The notes below the pieces were generated by a model. That model made no database searches. It was not told the DNA's origin and worked only from the letters and a program-made list of their open reading frames with translations. From sequence record NC_054919.1: DNA of 64,000 nucleotides, one strand, 5' to 3'. Position 1 is the first letter of the stretch. Each line of letters opens with the position of its first letter. This document shows positions 31,960 through 34,195 of this stretch, piece by piece. The stretch comes from Escherichia phage vB_EcoM_G4507. Both the position numbers and the translations under genes were made by a program.

Positions 31960-32415
31960 TTAAAAGAGGCTGTTCATTATTCGGTAAAGTGAAGGACCCA
32001 TCACATATTGCCACTGAGTACGAGGAATAAGAGCAAAAGCATCCATCTCTGGAATCATAACGCCATCTTTATTTTCAAAATAAGACTCGCAATGGCAATT
32101 TCTGAACATCTCATGCTCTACTGGAATCGTATAATAAAATAACTGTAAGTCTTTATTACTAGAATATTTAAATACACCTAGGTCTTCTAGAAGGTCTGGA
32201 TTATAATTGCTAAAACCGGTCTCTTCTAAGCATTCTCTTTTTGCAGCTTCCAGTGCATTCAAATCAGAACTTTCTACACGGCCCTTTGGAATATCCCAAC
32301 GATGTGCCATCATTCCAGGCTTACGAGAACCAGTAACCCGACCCATAAATAAATCTTTATCTTCTGTCATAAAGATAATACCAGCTGATAGTGTTTTCAT
32401 TTTAATTTCCTGCAT
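31960..32415 (-). CDS. nudE: Nudix hydrolase
   Basis: Nudix box GRVESSDLNALEAAKRECLEETGF. Confidence 0.8.
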   Translation of the reverse strand: MQEIKMKTLSAGIIFMTEDKDLFMGRVTGSRKPGMMAHRWDIPKGRVESSDLNALEAAKRECLEETGFSNYNPDLLEDLGVFKYSSNKDLQLFYYTIPVEHEMFRNCHCESYFENKDGVMIPEMDAFALIPRTQWQYVMGPSLYRIMNSLF

Positions 32416-32885
32416 TCAGTGATAAAGTTATTTAAATTTTGAGTATATTTCTTTTCATCAAAAATCTTTTGTTGTCTGCGTAAACGCCATGGCATTTCAA
32501 TGAACACGCACCACATTCCTGATAATATTGCTGCTGTCAAAATATTAACAAGCATAATTAAAAGAATCCAATCTCCTGTTCTGCCTATTGGACTTTCACC
32601 AAAGAAGCAAAATACAAATGATGTCACAGGAAAACTAATGATATACCACAGAATCATAATCTTATTTGTAAACCAATCAGCGTTCGTTAGCTTAGCGCGA
32701 CCATTATGAATACACACGAATTTATCATCTGTTATAATAGATGGCTTAGCTGCTTGATATCCCATTCTAAACTCCCTAATCAACAAATTTTTCATATCTT
32801 CGGAACAACCATTCCAGTCAACTCTATTAACTGAAATGCCATCATCCCCATCATCTAAATCATACCAGCGAGTTTTTAAAATCAT
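32397..32885 (-). CDS. Membrane protein with C-terminal CRK motif
   Basis: Hydrophobic segments; ends NNFITECRKLK. Confidence 0.5.
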   Translation of the reverse strand: MILKTRWYDLDDGDDGISVNRVDWNGCSEDMKNLLIREFRMGYQAAKPSIITDDKFVCIHNGRAKLTNADWFTNKIMILWYIISFPVTSFVFCFFGESPIGRTGDWILLIMLVNILTAAILSGMWCVFIEMPWRLRRQQKIFDEKKYTQNLNNFITECRKLK

Positions 32886-33244
32886 TTAATTTTCCTGCAA
32901 TCACTCACAAACTCTTCCATTGATTCTTTTTCAATATAAGACATGTAGTTGTTATATTCCTTTAATTGTATTTTGTAATCCTTTTTTCTTTGCCAATTTA
33001 TTTTAAAATTATCATAATGAAAATATAACATGGTACCAAAGAATGAAAATAATGAAATAATTTTAGTATAGTGAAGTTCACTCCAAACTTCTATTATATT
33101 TACTGTGCCGTCAATGTTTAAAATAATACAGTCAATTAACAATCCAAAAAGACTACCCGCAAGAGCTGCAGCCAACGCCACAGCAAAAATTAAAAATGAC
33201 TCAGGAAGAGAATATTTGACTTTATTTAGTTTTGGCTTTTGCAT
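32882..33244 (-). CDS. Membrane protein with C-terminal CRK motif
   Basis: Hydrophobic segments; ends EEFVSDCRKIK. Confidence 0.5.
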   Translation of the reverse strand: MQKPKLNKVKYSLPESFLIFAVALAAALAGSLFGLLIDCIILNIDGTVNIIEVWSELHYTKIISLFSFFGTMLYFHYDNFKINWQRKKDYKIQLKEYNNYMSYIEKESMEEFVSDCRKIK

Positions 33245-33618
33245 CGTGATTCCTTAACAAATTTCATAATTTCATCAAATTCATGTGCAGCAAGTTTAAG
33301 CTGATGTTCCTTTTTAATCTTTTTACACTGGGCTTTCCAATCACGTACACGTTTACGATAGTGTCTTCCTTGATACCAGTATCCCACCCAATTTACAGGT
33401 ACTAATAAAAATGGAACTATCATTGGAAGAATTAGTGTTGACGCAAATATTACATTAGATTCAATATCAGTCATAACATCTATAACTATTCCAACCCCCA
33501 GTAGAATTACAAATGATACAGCTATTACAGGACCTATTAATACATCAGTAGAAATTAGCTGGCGCTTTAATTCATACTTCAACGGTTTACTTGGAAGATA
33601 CATTGATGGCTTTGACAT
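33226..33618 (-). CDS. Membrane protein with related C-terminus
   Basis: Hydrophobic segments; ends MKFVKESRCKSQN. Confidence 0.5.
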   Translation of the reverse strand: MSKPSMYLPSKPLKYELKRQLISTDVLIGPVIAVSFVILLGVGIVIDVMTDIESNVIFASTLILPMIVPFLLVPVNWVGYWYQGRHYRKRVRDWKAQCKKIKKEHQLKLAAHEFDEIMKFVKESRCKSQN

Positions 33619-34195
33619 ATTCTCTACATTCCTTCACAAATTTTTCTAATAATAAATCGCTTTCAAAATTGGGATTTTCCACGAATTTATCAAAAAGATC
33701 ATCAACAATAGTTAAGATATTCTTTTTACTAAGAATACGCTTATTTTCATGCTTCGTTTCAGAATCAACTATAAGAGTAAAGAAATATTTCTTGCCCTGA
33801 AATTTTACAGTAGTATCAATATAGAATAAATTTGACTTTTGTAAATTACGTTTAAACCATGCATCACTTAAACTATAAACGCCAAGATAATCATAATCGT
33901 CGTTTAAATAACAGACCGTCCATTCAGGAGAAACAAAATCAGTAAATTCAACGTCAAAATCGCATGTTAATGAATGAATTGATTCAATACTGTTAATAAG
34001 TATTCCAGGACGTATTAAAGACTTTTTACCTCTAGAAAATCTTCCAGAAAGATTTTCATCAGTTTCATATGAAGAACCCCAATAATAATTACGTCCTTCT
34101 GCCATACGTTTAAGAGCATTTAATAATTGGTCTGGAACATCAACTCGTCTTTGGAACTCTTCAAACATTGAATTGAAATCACTTTGCATTTTCAT
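33587..34195 (-). CDS. Hypothetical soluble protein with related C-terminal motif
   Basis: 202 aa; ends EKFVKECREYVKAINVSSK. Confidence 0.5.
   Translation of the reverse strand: MKMQSDFNSMFEEFQRRVDVPDQLLNALKRMAEGRNYYWGSSYETDENLSGRFSRGKKSLIRPGILINSIESIHSLTCDFDVEFTDFVSPEWTVCYLNDDYDYLGVYSLSDAWFKRNLQKSNLFYIDTTVKFQGKKYFFTLIVDSETKHENKRILSKKNILTIVDDLFDKFVENPNFESDLLLEKFVKECREYVKAINVSSK

What the first reader, a model, noticed from the sequence alone, without database searches (positions are those of the whole stretch)
32397..34195. Four tandem genes sharing a C-terminal F(V/I)xEC/SRK motif, three of them membrane proteins
The consecutive minus-strand ORFs end with NNFITECRKLK, EEFVSDCRKIK, MKFVKESRCKSQN and EKFVKECREYVKAINVSSK. 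The first three have clear transmembrane segments and the fourth is soluble. A shared C-terminal module on otherwise divergent bodies, arranged in tandem just downstream of e/nudE, suggests a duplicated family with a common interaction tag. Plausible roles are superinfection exclusion, lysis timing or membrane-targeted host takeover.
Basis: seen in the sequence. Interest (0 to 1): 0.55.

Follow-up and report, generated by a model that had tools for sequence, protein, structure and literature searches.

The report
Shared C-terminal tag beside phage PspA
Four neighbouring early genes of a T4-type phage (e.2 to e.5) end in the same short helical motif, which is kept in every T4-like phage examined in the genes that follow e.6, a PspA-like membrane-stress gene, so it is probably a docking tag for a shared partner.

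Summary
The window is a Tequatrovirus, 91% identical to T4. The four ORFs are e.2, e.3, e.4 and e.5.

Their ends share phi-[E/D]-x-F-[I/V]-x-x-C-[R/K], with S for C in e.4. In six-frame scans of almost the whole T4 genome, the only intact in-frame matches in real genes are in this cluster.

The motif holds in 36 proteins from 11 Straboviridae genera. It also holds in 32 of 32 further e.6-anchored metagenomic loci. It uses synonymous codons and persists where no downstream gene overlaps. Selection therefore acts on the protein, although the same DNA carries the Shine-Dalgarno site of the next gene.

e.3 and e.4 are true paralogues. The C-terminal half of e.2 and extra copies in other genera are probable remote paralogues. 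e.5 has an unrelated soluble body.

Repeated translation-initiation regions mediate gene loss, and microhomology between paralogous TM segments mediates gene fusion.

The anchor gene e.6 is PspA/Vipp1-like. Best reading, inferred and not shown: a cytoplasmic docking helix that ties membrane anchors and soluble adaptors to a common partner, most likely e.6. Function is untested. Knock-downs show no laboratory phenotype.

The parts
32397..32885 (-). e.2: 162 aa. A cytoplasmic N-domain (1-75), two TM segments, a basic tail and the motif NLNN-FITECR-KLK.
   Evidence: (phrog_2203). The T4 reference copy is broken by -1/+1 frameshifts.
32409..32435 (-). Motif-coding segment of e.2 (residues 151-159, LNNFITECR). 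The SD AGGA for nudE starts in its last codon (R159, AGG) and runs into K160.
32882..33244 (-). e.3: 120 aa. Two hydrophobic segments and the motif SMEE-FVSDCR-KIK.
   Evidence: (phrog_2330, plus a weak hit to the e.4 phrog)
32894..32920 (-). Motif-coding segment of e.3 (residues 109-117). The SD AGGA for e.2 starts in R117 (AGG) and continues into K118. The e.3 stop overlaps the e.2 start as ATGA.
33226..33618 (-). e.4: 130 aa. N-in/C-in two-TM protein with a strongly basic juxtamembrane tail and the motif EIMK-FVKESR-CKSQN.
   Evidence: phrog_2604; PF26873
33244..33270 (-). Motif-coding segment of e.4 (residues 117-125). The KE codons AAGGAA are the SD for e.3, whose ATG lies inside the e.4 tail.
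33587..34195 (-). e.5: 202 aa, soluble, with the motif LLEK-FVKECR-EYVKAINVSSK. It is the constant downstream partner of e.6 in all genera examined.
   Evidence: (phrog_2607)
33623..33649 (-). Motif-coding segment of e.5 (residues 183-191). AAGGAA lies 11 nt upstream of the e.4 ATG.
34237..34830 (-). e.6: 197 aa, PspA/Vipp1 (ESCRT-III superfamily)-like helical protein. It is the synteny anchor of the motif genes and the proposed partner.
34872..34900 (-). Strong sigma-70-type early promoter (TTTACA-17-TATAAT, 11/12, extended TG) upstream of e.6.
34216..34231 (-). GGGGC-UUCG-GCCCC hairpin between e.6 and e.5. It is kept, with compensatory changes, in the other genera.
31960..32415 (-). nudE, translationally coupled to e.2. 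The real start is probably the ATG at 32400 (MKT...).

Best explanation
e.2 to e.5 are real, early-expressed T4-type proteins. Each ends in a short amphipathic helix, phi(-3)-[E/D](-2)-x-F(0)-[I/V](+1)-x-x-C(+4)-[R/K](+5).

Shown:
- The motif is under amino-acid-level purifying selection.
- It sits in the cytoplasm. The membrane proteins read as N-in/C-in by charge distribution.
- It is carried by unrelated bodies: e.5-type soluble proteins, e.3/e.4-type two-TM proteins, e.2-type proteins (N-domain plus two TM), and small soluble proteins in other genera.
- In every T4-like phage examined it marks the genes that directly follow e.6, a PspA/Vipp1-like protein.

Inferred: the motif is a docking (short linear) helix through which these proteins bind one common cytoplasmic partner, most likely the e.6 polymer. 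The two-TM proteins would then act as membrane anchors or recruiters, as PspB/PspC do for PspA and LiaI does for LiaH. e.5 would be a soluble adaptor or regulator using the same site.

Shown, second layer: the motif DNA is also the translation-initiation region of the next gene, with the SD in the variable positions. The repeated translation-initiation regions and paralogous TM segments are the breakpoints at which the cluster loses and fuses genes.
For: Reality and expression:
- The ORFs are e.2-e.5 of a Tequatrovirus.
- All are in the early RNA class and all were detected as proteins in T4 infection (PMC9697503 supplement).

Conservation:
- 36 instances from 11 genera.
- Position -3, which was not part of the search pattern, is hydrophobic in 92% and -2 is acidic in 61%. 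This gives an i, i+3, i+4, i+7 stripe.

Protein-level selection:
- F is coded TTT 16 / TTC 8 and C is coded TGC 10 / TGT 9. R uses six codons.
- Mosigvirus e.3 and its extra copy have the same peptide (ENFIKECR) with four synonymous differences.
- The motif is kept where no gene overlaps it (Biquartavirus and Pseudotevenvirus e.5, Kanagawavirus e.2).

Specificity: the only intact in-frame matches found in T4 genes are in this cluster.

Linkage to e.6:
- The first gene after e.6 carries the motif in all 11 genera inspected by hand.
- The same holds in 31 of 32 independent IMG/VR loci. In the 32nd, e.5 is frameshifted and its 3' piece carries the motif.
- In Aeromonas and Pseudotevenvirus phages the e.6/e.5 pair sits in a different genome context.

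e.6 is PspA-like:
- Profile against PDB sequences: Vipp1 gives the top three hits, E 0.015-0.05, collinear 1-140.
- One orthologue hits PF04012 at E 4e-4.
- The AF2 model's top nine Foldseek hits are all Vipp1/PspA.
- HHpred 99.9% to E. coli PspA 4WHE is reported for an e.6 homologue (PMC7862958).

Topology: basic N-termini and tails, acidic loops.

Recombination:
- Dhakavirus lost e.4 by a crossover between the e.4 and e.3 initiation regions.
- UFV10 carries an e.4N::e.2C fusion.
Against: - No interaction was tested. The link to e.6 rests on synteny only.
- AF2 of e.5 failed (pLDDT 36), so I cannot tell whether the helix is free or packs on e.5's own body.
- The Cys is replaced by S, V, I or M in the e.4 lineage, so the residue is not strictly required.
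- e.6 has no Cys.
- The motif does overlap the next gene's ribosome-binding site in most cases, so some nucleotide-level constraint is real.
- CRISPRi-ART knock-downs of e.2-e.6 are scored 'Not Fit' in that screen's table, which I read as no fitness effect in the laboratory (PMC11879866 supplement 15). Any function is therefore conditional.
- hhalign of the e.6 profile against the single E. coli PspA sequence was negative.
Confidence: 0.55

Rival explanations
1. The motif helices bind each other. e.2-e.5 would form a hetero-oligomeric membrane complex held by a C-terminal helix bundle, possibly with the cysteines forming a disulfide or metal site. e.6 would be only a neighbour.
For: There are several motif proteins per genome (2-5). 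One Cys is conserved in each (28 of 36). The helix has an amphipathic heptad-like pattern. The genes are translationally coupled, which favours stoichiometric co-expression.
Against: The number of carriers varies from 1 (Biquartavirus, Pseudotevenvirus) to 5, so no fixed stoichiometry exists. The e.4 lineage lacks the Cys at +4. The cytoplasm is reducing. The one constant is co-occurrence with e.6.
Confidence: 0.2
2. The helix is a membrane-surface or intramolecular structural element, for example an amphipathic membrane-targeting sequence. It would have been inherited or transferred by recombination, with no specific protein partner.
For: It is an amphipathic helix near the C-terminus with basic residues around it. 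Soluble carriers could use it to reach the membrane.
Against: The residues preceding the motif are acidic (-2 is E/D in 61%), unlike the basic membrane-targeting helices described for MinD and FtsA (my recollection, not checked here). F, I/V, C and R are conserved far more precisely than a lipid-binding helix would need. In the two-TM proteins it lies 30-45 residues beyond TM2.
Confidence: 0.12
3. The similarity is a by-product of nucleotide-level constraint. Each gene's 3' end is the translation-initiation region of the next gene, copied by duplication and homogenised by gene conversion.
For: The F codon lies 17-32 nt upstream of the next ATG in most cases. The SD (AAGGAA, GAGGAA or AGGAAA) lies inside the motif. 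Recombination does occur between these regions.
Against: The SD occupies the variable positions (+2/+3 or +5/+6), not F, I/V or C. Synonymous codons vary freely, including six Arg codons. The motif persists with no overlapping downstream gene (Biq_e5, Pse_e5, Kan_e2). Paralogues in one genome differ at synonymous sites, so there has been no recent conversion.
Confidence: 0.06
4. Chance resemblance of four K/E/R-rich C-termini.
For: None beyond the short length of the motif.
Against: 0.065 hits are expected genome-wide against 3 strict plus 1 variant observed in consecutive genes. The motif is conserved in 11 genera and in 32 of 32 further loci.
Confidence: 0.01

Closest known systems
Psp and Lia envelope-stress modules (PspA with PspB/PspC in E. 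coli; LiaH with LiaI in Bacillus)
   Same: A PspA-family gene comes first, under its own strong promoter. Small inner-membrane proteins follow it, and their cytoplasmic C-terminal parts are known (PspC) or thought (LiaI) to hold PspA/LiaH at the membrane. That last point is my recollection of the Psp/Lia literature and was not checked here. The E. coli gene order pspA-pspB-pspC was seen.
   Different: There is no sequence similarity between e.2-e.5 and PspB or PspC (no Pfam or NCBIfam hits). The phage proteins have two TM segments rather than one. The same tag is also on soluble proteins. The module is phage-encoded and expressed early in a lytic infection. Binding to e.6 is untested.
Cargo-loading or encapsulation peptides (encapsulin cargo C-terminal peptides; microcompartment encapsulation helices)
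   Same: A roughly 10-residue, usually C-terminal, helical peptide is shared by otherwise unrelated proteins encoded next to the gene of a self-assembling scaffold. This is a comparison of how it may work, recalled from the literature.
   Different: The scaffold here would be an ESCRT-III/PspA-type polymer, not a shell. No compartment is known, the consensus differs, and nothing has been tested.
Tandem paralogue clusters of small early genes in T4 hyperplastic regions
   Same: The genes are short, overlapping and translationally coupled, and they vary in copy number between T4-like genera. e.3 and e.4 are such paralogues. Gene loss and fusion occur by recombination at repeats.
   Different: The conserved element is not the whole gene. 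It is a 9-residue tail that crosses family boundaries and is kept over subfamily-level distances.
PHROG families 2203, 2330, 2604 and 2607, and Pfam PF26873 / PF26896
   Same: e.2, e.3, e.4 and e.5 are full-length members of these four PHROGs. e.4 relatives carry precomputed PF26873. The e.4::e.2 fusion protein carries PF26873 plus PF26896.
   Different: The databases file them as four separate families, three of unknown function and phrog_2203 named only 'membrane protein'. None of the entries I could see mentions the shared tail or the link to e.6. The two Pfam models are not in the local library, so their descriptions could not be read.

Membership tests
One paralogous family comprising e.2, e.3, e.4 and e.5 | Significant profile-profile similarity that extends beyond the shared motif | tested here: not met
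   Met only for e.3 and e.4: 96.7%, E 3e-10 over 90 columns, and still 83.7% with the motif removed. For e.2 and the extra copies against e.4, probability is 76-90% with the motif and below 6% without it. For e.5 against any other, only 10-22 columns align at 11-33%.
Short linear motif under protein-level selection | Conserved in orthologues across distant relatives | tested here: met
   36 instances in 11 genera. Also 32 of 32 further e.6-anchored loci.
Short linear motif under protein-level selection | Amino acids conserved while codons vary, and independence from the overlapping downstream gene | tested here: met
   TTT/TTC, TGC/TGT and six Arg codons are used. The motif is retained where the next gene starts more than 50 nt away or is absent.
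PspA/IM30/Vipp1 (ESCRT-III superfamily), for the neighbour e.6 | Sequence-profile match to PF04012 or to solved PspA/Vipp1 | tested here: inconclusive
   One of 10 orthologues hits PF04012 at E 4e-4, and the window copy gives no hit. The profile against PDB puts Vipp1 in the top three hits at E 0.015-0.05, collinear from residue 1. hhalign against the single E. coli PspA sequence is negative. The literature reports HHpred 99.9% to 4WHE for a homologue.
PspA/IM30/Vipp1 (ESCRT-III superfamily), for the neighbour e.6 | Fold: N-terminal amphipathic helix, long alpha1-alpha2/3 hairpin, then shorter C-terminal helices | tested here: met
PspB/PspC or LiaI-type PspA partners, for e.2-e.4 | Membership of the PspB, PspC or LiaI sequence families | tested here: not met
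   No Pfam or NCBIfam hit to these families at E <= 1.
PspB/PspC or LiaI-type PspA partners, for e.2-e.4 | Physical binding of the cytoplasmic tail to the PspA-like protein | not testable with these tools
No multimer prediction is available.
T4 superinfection-exclusion or lysis-timing proteins (Imm, Sp, RI, RIII, holin T) | Sequence similarity to those families | tested here: not met
   Pfam, PHROGs and NCBIfam give no such match. The only lysis-category hit is a noise-level Rz-like spanin match for e.6, E 0.18.
Sulfurtransferase (name given to e.3 and e.4 in several GenBank records) | A rhodanese or other sulfurtransferase domain | tested here: not met
   No such domain was found in Pfam or NCBIfam. 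The proteins are 120-130 aa two-TM proteins. I treat the name as an annotation artefact.

The most novel reading that the evidence does not exclude
T4-like phages carry their own Psp-like membrane-maintenance or remodelling system. A PspA/ESCRT-III-type polymer (e.6) would be made early from a strong promoter. A modular 9-residue C-terminal 'client tag' would let interchangeable two-TM anchors (e.2, e.3, e.4 and extra copies) and soluble adaptors (e.5 and others) dock to it. New clients would arise when recombination at the overlapping tag and ribosome-binding-site repeats places the tag on new bodies.
Probability: 0.33. Interest if true: 0.85.

Novelty: new variant of a known kind. Interest (0 to 1): 0.62.

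Why it matters
T4 is the reference lytic phage, yet e.2 to e.8 are still listed as 'unknown'.

The work turns five anonymous ORFs into one testable module. The module consists of a phage-encoded PspA/Vipp1-like protein and a set of membrane and soluble proteins marked by one conserved cytoplasmic tag. It is kept across Tevenvirinae, Emmerichvirinae, Biquartavirus and Pseudotevenvirus.

If the tag docks clients to e.6, it would be a virus-encoded ESCRT-III/PspA system with its own adaptor code. That bears on how lytic phages keep the host inner membrane energised during infection. The peptide could also serve as a portable targeting tag.

The locus is also a clean example of one DNA stretch under double duty (protein motif plus the next gene's ribosome-binding site), in a cluster whose repeated initiation regions serve as recombination breakpoints.

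Tried and rejected
1. Single-sequence pairwise alignment of the four proteins. Only e.2/e.3 tails (z 3.7) and e.3/e.4 (z 2.8) rise above shuffles, and e.5 does not. Profiles were needed.

2. Pfam, NCBIfam and PDB searches for e.2-e.5. Nothing was found. The weak hits are far below their cut-offs and cover TM segments, so I treat them as compositional noise: MASE9 E 0.019, DUF5418 E 0.016, and Bfi1 immunity E 1.3e-3 at 18.7 bits against a cut-off of 100.

3. The word-indexed homologue searches for e.3 and e.4 returned only close Tequatrovirus relatives. A concatenated e.6+e.5 profile search returned just three e.6 homologues, so the third search was effectively wasted.

4. An exhaustive phmmer of e.5 against 1.84 billion representatives gave 6 hits. 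One was a spurious repeat protein.

5. AF2 of e.5 without an alignment gave pLDDT 36 and is unusable.

7. Literature searches by gene name found no functional study.

8. Explanations rejected:
- Chance.
- Ribosome-binding-site by-product.
- A C-terminal degron. The motif is followed by 0-25 residues, so it is not read from a free C-terminus.
- The 'sulfurtransferase' annotation.
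Full report
**What is there**

The window is a Tequatrovirus. It is 99.8% identical to phage ECP52 and 91% identical to T4 over the region.

On the minus strand the order is:
- a strong early promoter (34900-34872, 11/12 match)
- e.6 (34237-34830)
- a GGGGC-UUCG-GCCCC hairpin (34216-34231)
- e.5, e.4, e.3 and e.2, then nudE and e

The four ORFs of the finding are therefore T4 e.5, e.4, e.3 and e.2.

They overlap head to tail: e.5/e.4 by 32 nt, e.4/e.3 by 19 nt, and e.3/e.2 as ATGA. The e.2 stop overlaps the likely nudE start as ATGA.

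Hydropathy shows two TM segments in e.2 and e.4, one strong and one weaker in e.3, and none in e.5. Basic N-termini and tails with acidic loops indicate N-in/C-in topology, so the tails are cytoplasmic.

**Is it more than chance?**

Yes.
- The strict pattern F[IV].[ED][CS]R occurs five times in the six-frame translation of the whole window, and four of those are these tails.
- [FW][IV]xxC[RK] has a compositional probability of 1.2e-5 per position. That gives 0.065 expected occurrences in the last 20 residues of all ~280 T4 proteins.
- Of the 91 window ORFs of at least 80 aa, only these four carry the loose motif in their last 25 residues.
- Six-frame scans of T4 1-50 kb, of T4 98-148 kb and of the window gave only hits containing stop codons or lying in tiny spurious ORFs, apart from e.2, e.3 and e.5.
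- A DNA-pattern scan of T4 147-169 kb, for the F version only, gave 2 hits. By hand, one is out of frame and one is antisense.

**Is it conserved?**

I used the well-conserved e.6 as an anchor (1105 phage records). I fetched the syntenic region from Mosigvirus, Dhakavirus, Gaprivervirus, Kanagawavirus, Jiaodavirus, Moonvirus, Kagamiyamavirus, Biquartavirus, Pseudotevenvirus and Ishigurovirus.

In every one, the gene directly after e.6 ends with the motif. That gene is soluble, 157-317 aa, and alignable with e.5 in most genera. Examples are QFIMECREY, RFITECREY, DFVEQCRTN, EFIKYCRER, EFVKMCRTK, LFVDYCRRT, KFIHSCKKN, DFINLCRDE and RFIKKCRGM.

The e.4-, e.3- and e.2-like two-TM proteins keep it too. 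So do extra two-TM copies and small soluble proteins that T4 lacks.

Pooling 36 instances gives the consensus phi(-3)-[E/D](-2)-x-F-[I/V]-x-x-C-[R/K]:
- Position -3 was not in the search pattern, yet it is hydrophobic in 92%.
- Position -2 is acidic in 61%.
- Position +4 is Cys in 28 of 36, otherwise V, I, M or S.
- The spacing -3, 0, +1, +4 (and +8 in 54%) is that of one face of an alpha-helix.
- Between 0 and 25 residues follow the motif.

As an independent sample I scanned IMG/VR with the e.6 profile and obtained 32 loci. In 31 of them the first ORF after e.6 carries the motif. In the 32nd, e.5 is split by a frameshift and the 3' fragment carries it. Each locus has 2-5 carriers within 3 kb.

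**Protein or nucleotide constraint?**

The motif DNA is also the translation-initiation region of the next gene. The F codon lies 17-32 nt upstream of the next ATG in most cases.

The Shine-Dalgarno sequence falls in the variable positions:
- +2/+3, as K-E = AAGGAA or E-E = GAGGAA
- +5/+6 in T4 e.2 and e.3, as R-K = AGGAAA

This explains why K/E dominate the x positions. It does not explain F, I/V, C and R, for three reasons:
- Those residues are encoded by TTT/TTC, six I/V codons, TGC/TGT and six different Arg codons.
- The motif persists where no gene overlaps it: Biquartavirus and Pseudotevenvirus e.5, and Kanagawavirus e.2.
- Paralogues in one genome with identical peptides differ at synonymous sites (Mosigvirus e.3 against its extra copy).

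Selection is therefore on the protein, with a secondary RNA-level constraint.

**Are the four genes one family?**

Only partly. The numbers below are profile-profile comparisons of small cross-genus alignments:
- e.3 against e.4: 96.7%, E 3e-10 over 90 columns. It stays at 83.7% after deleting the motif. Their N-termini also match (MSKPS.. against MQKPK..).
- The C-terminal half of e.2 and the extra copies against e.4: 76-90%, dropping below 6% once the motif is removed.
- e.5 against any of the others: only 10-22 columns align.

So e.3 and e.4 are paralogues. e.2 and the extra copies are plausible remote paralogues of the two-TM module. e.5 is an unrelated body with the same tail.

**Recombination at the repeats**

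- Dhakavirus lacks e.4. Its e.5 tail is Gaprivervirus e.5 up to AAAGAGGTYCAAAATG and then continues as the end of Gaprivervirus e.4. This is a crossover between the initiation regions of e.4 and e.3.
- Phages UFV10 and UFV05 carry an e.4(1-31)::e.2(88-162) fusion, joined in TM1, that keeps two TM segments and the tag.
- The T4 reference e.2 is interrupted by a -1 and a +1 frameshift 75 nt apart. The tag-coding 3' end is intact and back in frame.

**Context**

e.6 is PspA/Vipp1-like.
- A profile of ten orthologues has Synechocystis Vipp1 as its top three PDB hits (E 0.015-0.05, collinear from residue 1).
- One orthologue hits Pfam PspA_IM30 at E 4e-4.
- The AF2 model (pLDDT 76) shows an N-terminal helix, a long hairpin and short C-terminal helices.
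- Its nine best Foldseek hits are all Vipp1/PspA, followed by archaeal CdvB2.
- hhalign against E. coli PspA alone failed.
- A genome announcement had already noted HHpred 99.9% between an e.6 homologue and PspA 4WHE (PMC7862958). That part is therefore not new.

In Aeromonas and Pseudotevenvirus phages the e.6/e.5 pair sits in a different neighbourhood, next to nrdD/nrdG. The pair therefore travels together.

**Expression and phenotype**

- In T4 all five transcripts are in the early class and all five proteins were detected (PMC9697503 supplement).
- CRISPRi-ART lists e.2-e.8 as function unknown. The knock-downs are scored 'Not Fit' in that screen's table, which I read as no fitness effect in the laboratory (PMC11879866 supplement 15).

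**Interpretation**

Shown:
- a real cytoplasmic amphipathic C-terminal motif, selected at the protein level
- the same motif on unrelated bodies
- invariable linkage of those genes to e.6 in the loci examined

Inferred: the motif is a docking helix for one shared partner.

The most economical candidate is the PspA-like e.6. That would make the two-TM proteins membrane anchors and e.5 a soluble adaptor or regulator. By function this resembles PspB/PspC-PspA, LiaI-LiaH, or cargo-loading peptides next to a scaffold gene.

None of e.2-e.5 belongs to those families by sequence, and no binding was tested.

Rivals:
- motif-motif assembly of the four proteins
- a membrane-surface or intramolecular helix
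- a ribosome-binding-site by-product (largely refuted)
- chance (refuted)

**Limits**

- The fold of e.5 could not be obtained.
- The Pfam entries PF26873 and PF26896 attached to e.4 and e.2 relatives are not in the local library, so their descriptions could not be read.

Noticed in passing
window 34237-34830 (-): e.6, directly upstream of the finding, is a PspA/Vipp1 (ESCRT-III superfamily)-like protein with its own strong early promoter (34900-34872). It is conserved in more than 1100 phage records. One genome announcement (PMC7862958) had already noted HHpred 99.9% to E. coli PspA.
   Followed up: yes
L007:6945-7739, L006:6022-7266, L008:3991-5259 (-), L009:7716-9330, L011:8063-8846: A second tandem family lies between e.3 and e.2 in Mosig-, Dhaka-, Gapriver-, Kanagawa- and Moonvirus, and is absent from T4. 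It has 3-6 small soluble proteins (65-106 aa) that all end in G-x-W-[VI]-S-S-S-x-x-C at the very C-terminus. Function unknown.
   Followed up: no
L001:2520-2989 (T4 NC_000866.4 67491-67960); window 32397-32885: The T4 reference e.2 is annotated as a 102-aa truncated protein. Compared with the window it has a 1-nt deletion and a 1-nt insertion about 75 nt apart inside the TM region. The intact 162-aa form exists in most relatives. This may be an old sequencing error or a real lesion of the laboratory strain.
   Followed up: partly
L003:3001-3321 (phage UFV10); protein P0143 (UFV05): A natural in-frame fusion of the e.4 N-terminus to the e.2 C-terminal half, with e.3 deleted. It is joined within TM1 at a P-V microhomology and keeps two TM segments and the tag.
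   Followed up: partly
L006:5143-5685 against L008:5596-6484 (-): Dhakavirus has lost e.4 by recombination between the near-identical ribosome-binding regions of e.4 and e.3 (AAAGAGGTTCAAAATG / AAGGAGGTTCGTAATG). This gives e.5 the last four residues of e.4.
   Followed up: yes
window 32400-32415 (-): nudE is annotated, as in T4, from ATG 32415 (MQEIKMKT...). That ATG has no Shine-Dalgarno site. The ATG at 32400 (MKT...) has AGGAAA 7 nt upstream, overlaps the e.2 stop as ATGA, and matches the N-termini of nudE in other genera. The annotated start is probably 5 codons too long.
   Followed up: partly
window 34216-34231 and the homologous position in L021-L052: The hairpin between e.6 and e.5 (GGGGC-UUCG-GCCCC) is kept in nearly all genera with different stem sequences (GAGGGC-TTCG-GCCCTC, GGGAGAC-TTCG-GTCTCCC ...). 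These are compensatory changes around a UUCG-type loop. It is probably an mRNA 3'-end stabiliser or attenuator that sets e.6 expression above that of e.5-e.2.
   Followed up: partly
window 36479-36502 and 35922-35945 (-): Two nearly identical terminator-like hairpins (AGYCCCGAC-NAAA-GGTTGGGGCT followed by TTTTTGGTAT) lie 557 nt apart upstream of e.8. They are in the region where T4 has the stable RNAs rnaC and rnaD.
   Followed up: no
L017:3149-4324 (Aeromonas phage ZPAH1, Ishigurovirus): Here e.6 is followed by two tandem e.5-like paralogues (156 and 159 aa) and an 80-aa soluble protein, all three ending in the motif. No two-TM carrier was seen among the genes immediately following. The tag is therefore not tied to membrane proteins.
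   Followed up: partly
GenBank records under hits H5, H11, H17, H47; clusters P0002, P0047: e.3 and e.4 are named 'sulfurtransferase' in many deposited records. In T6 (AP018814) the region carries plainly wrong names: 'DNA primase', 'glutaredoxin' and 'RNA endonuclease'. No domain evidence supports any of these.
   Followed up: partly
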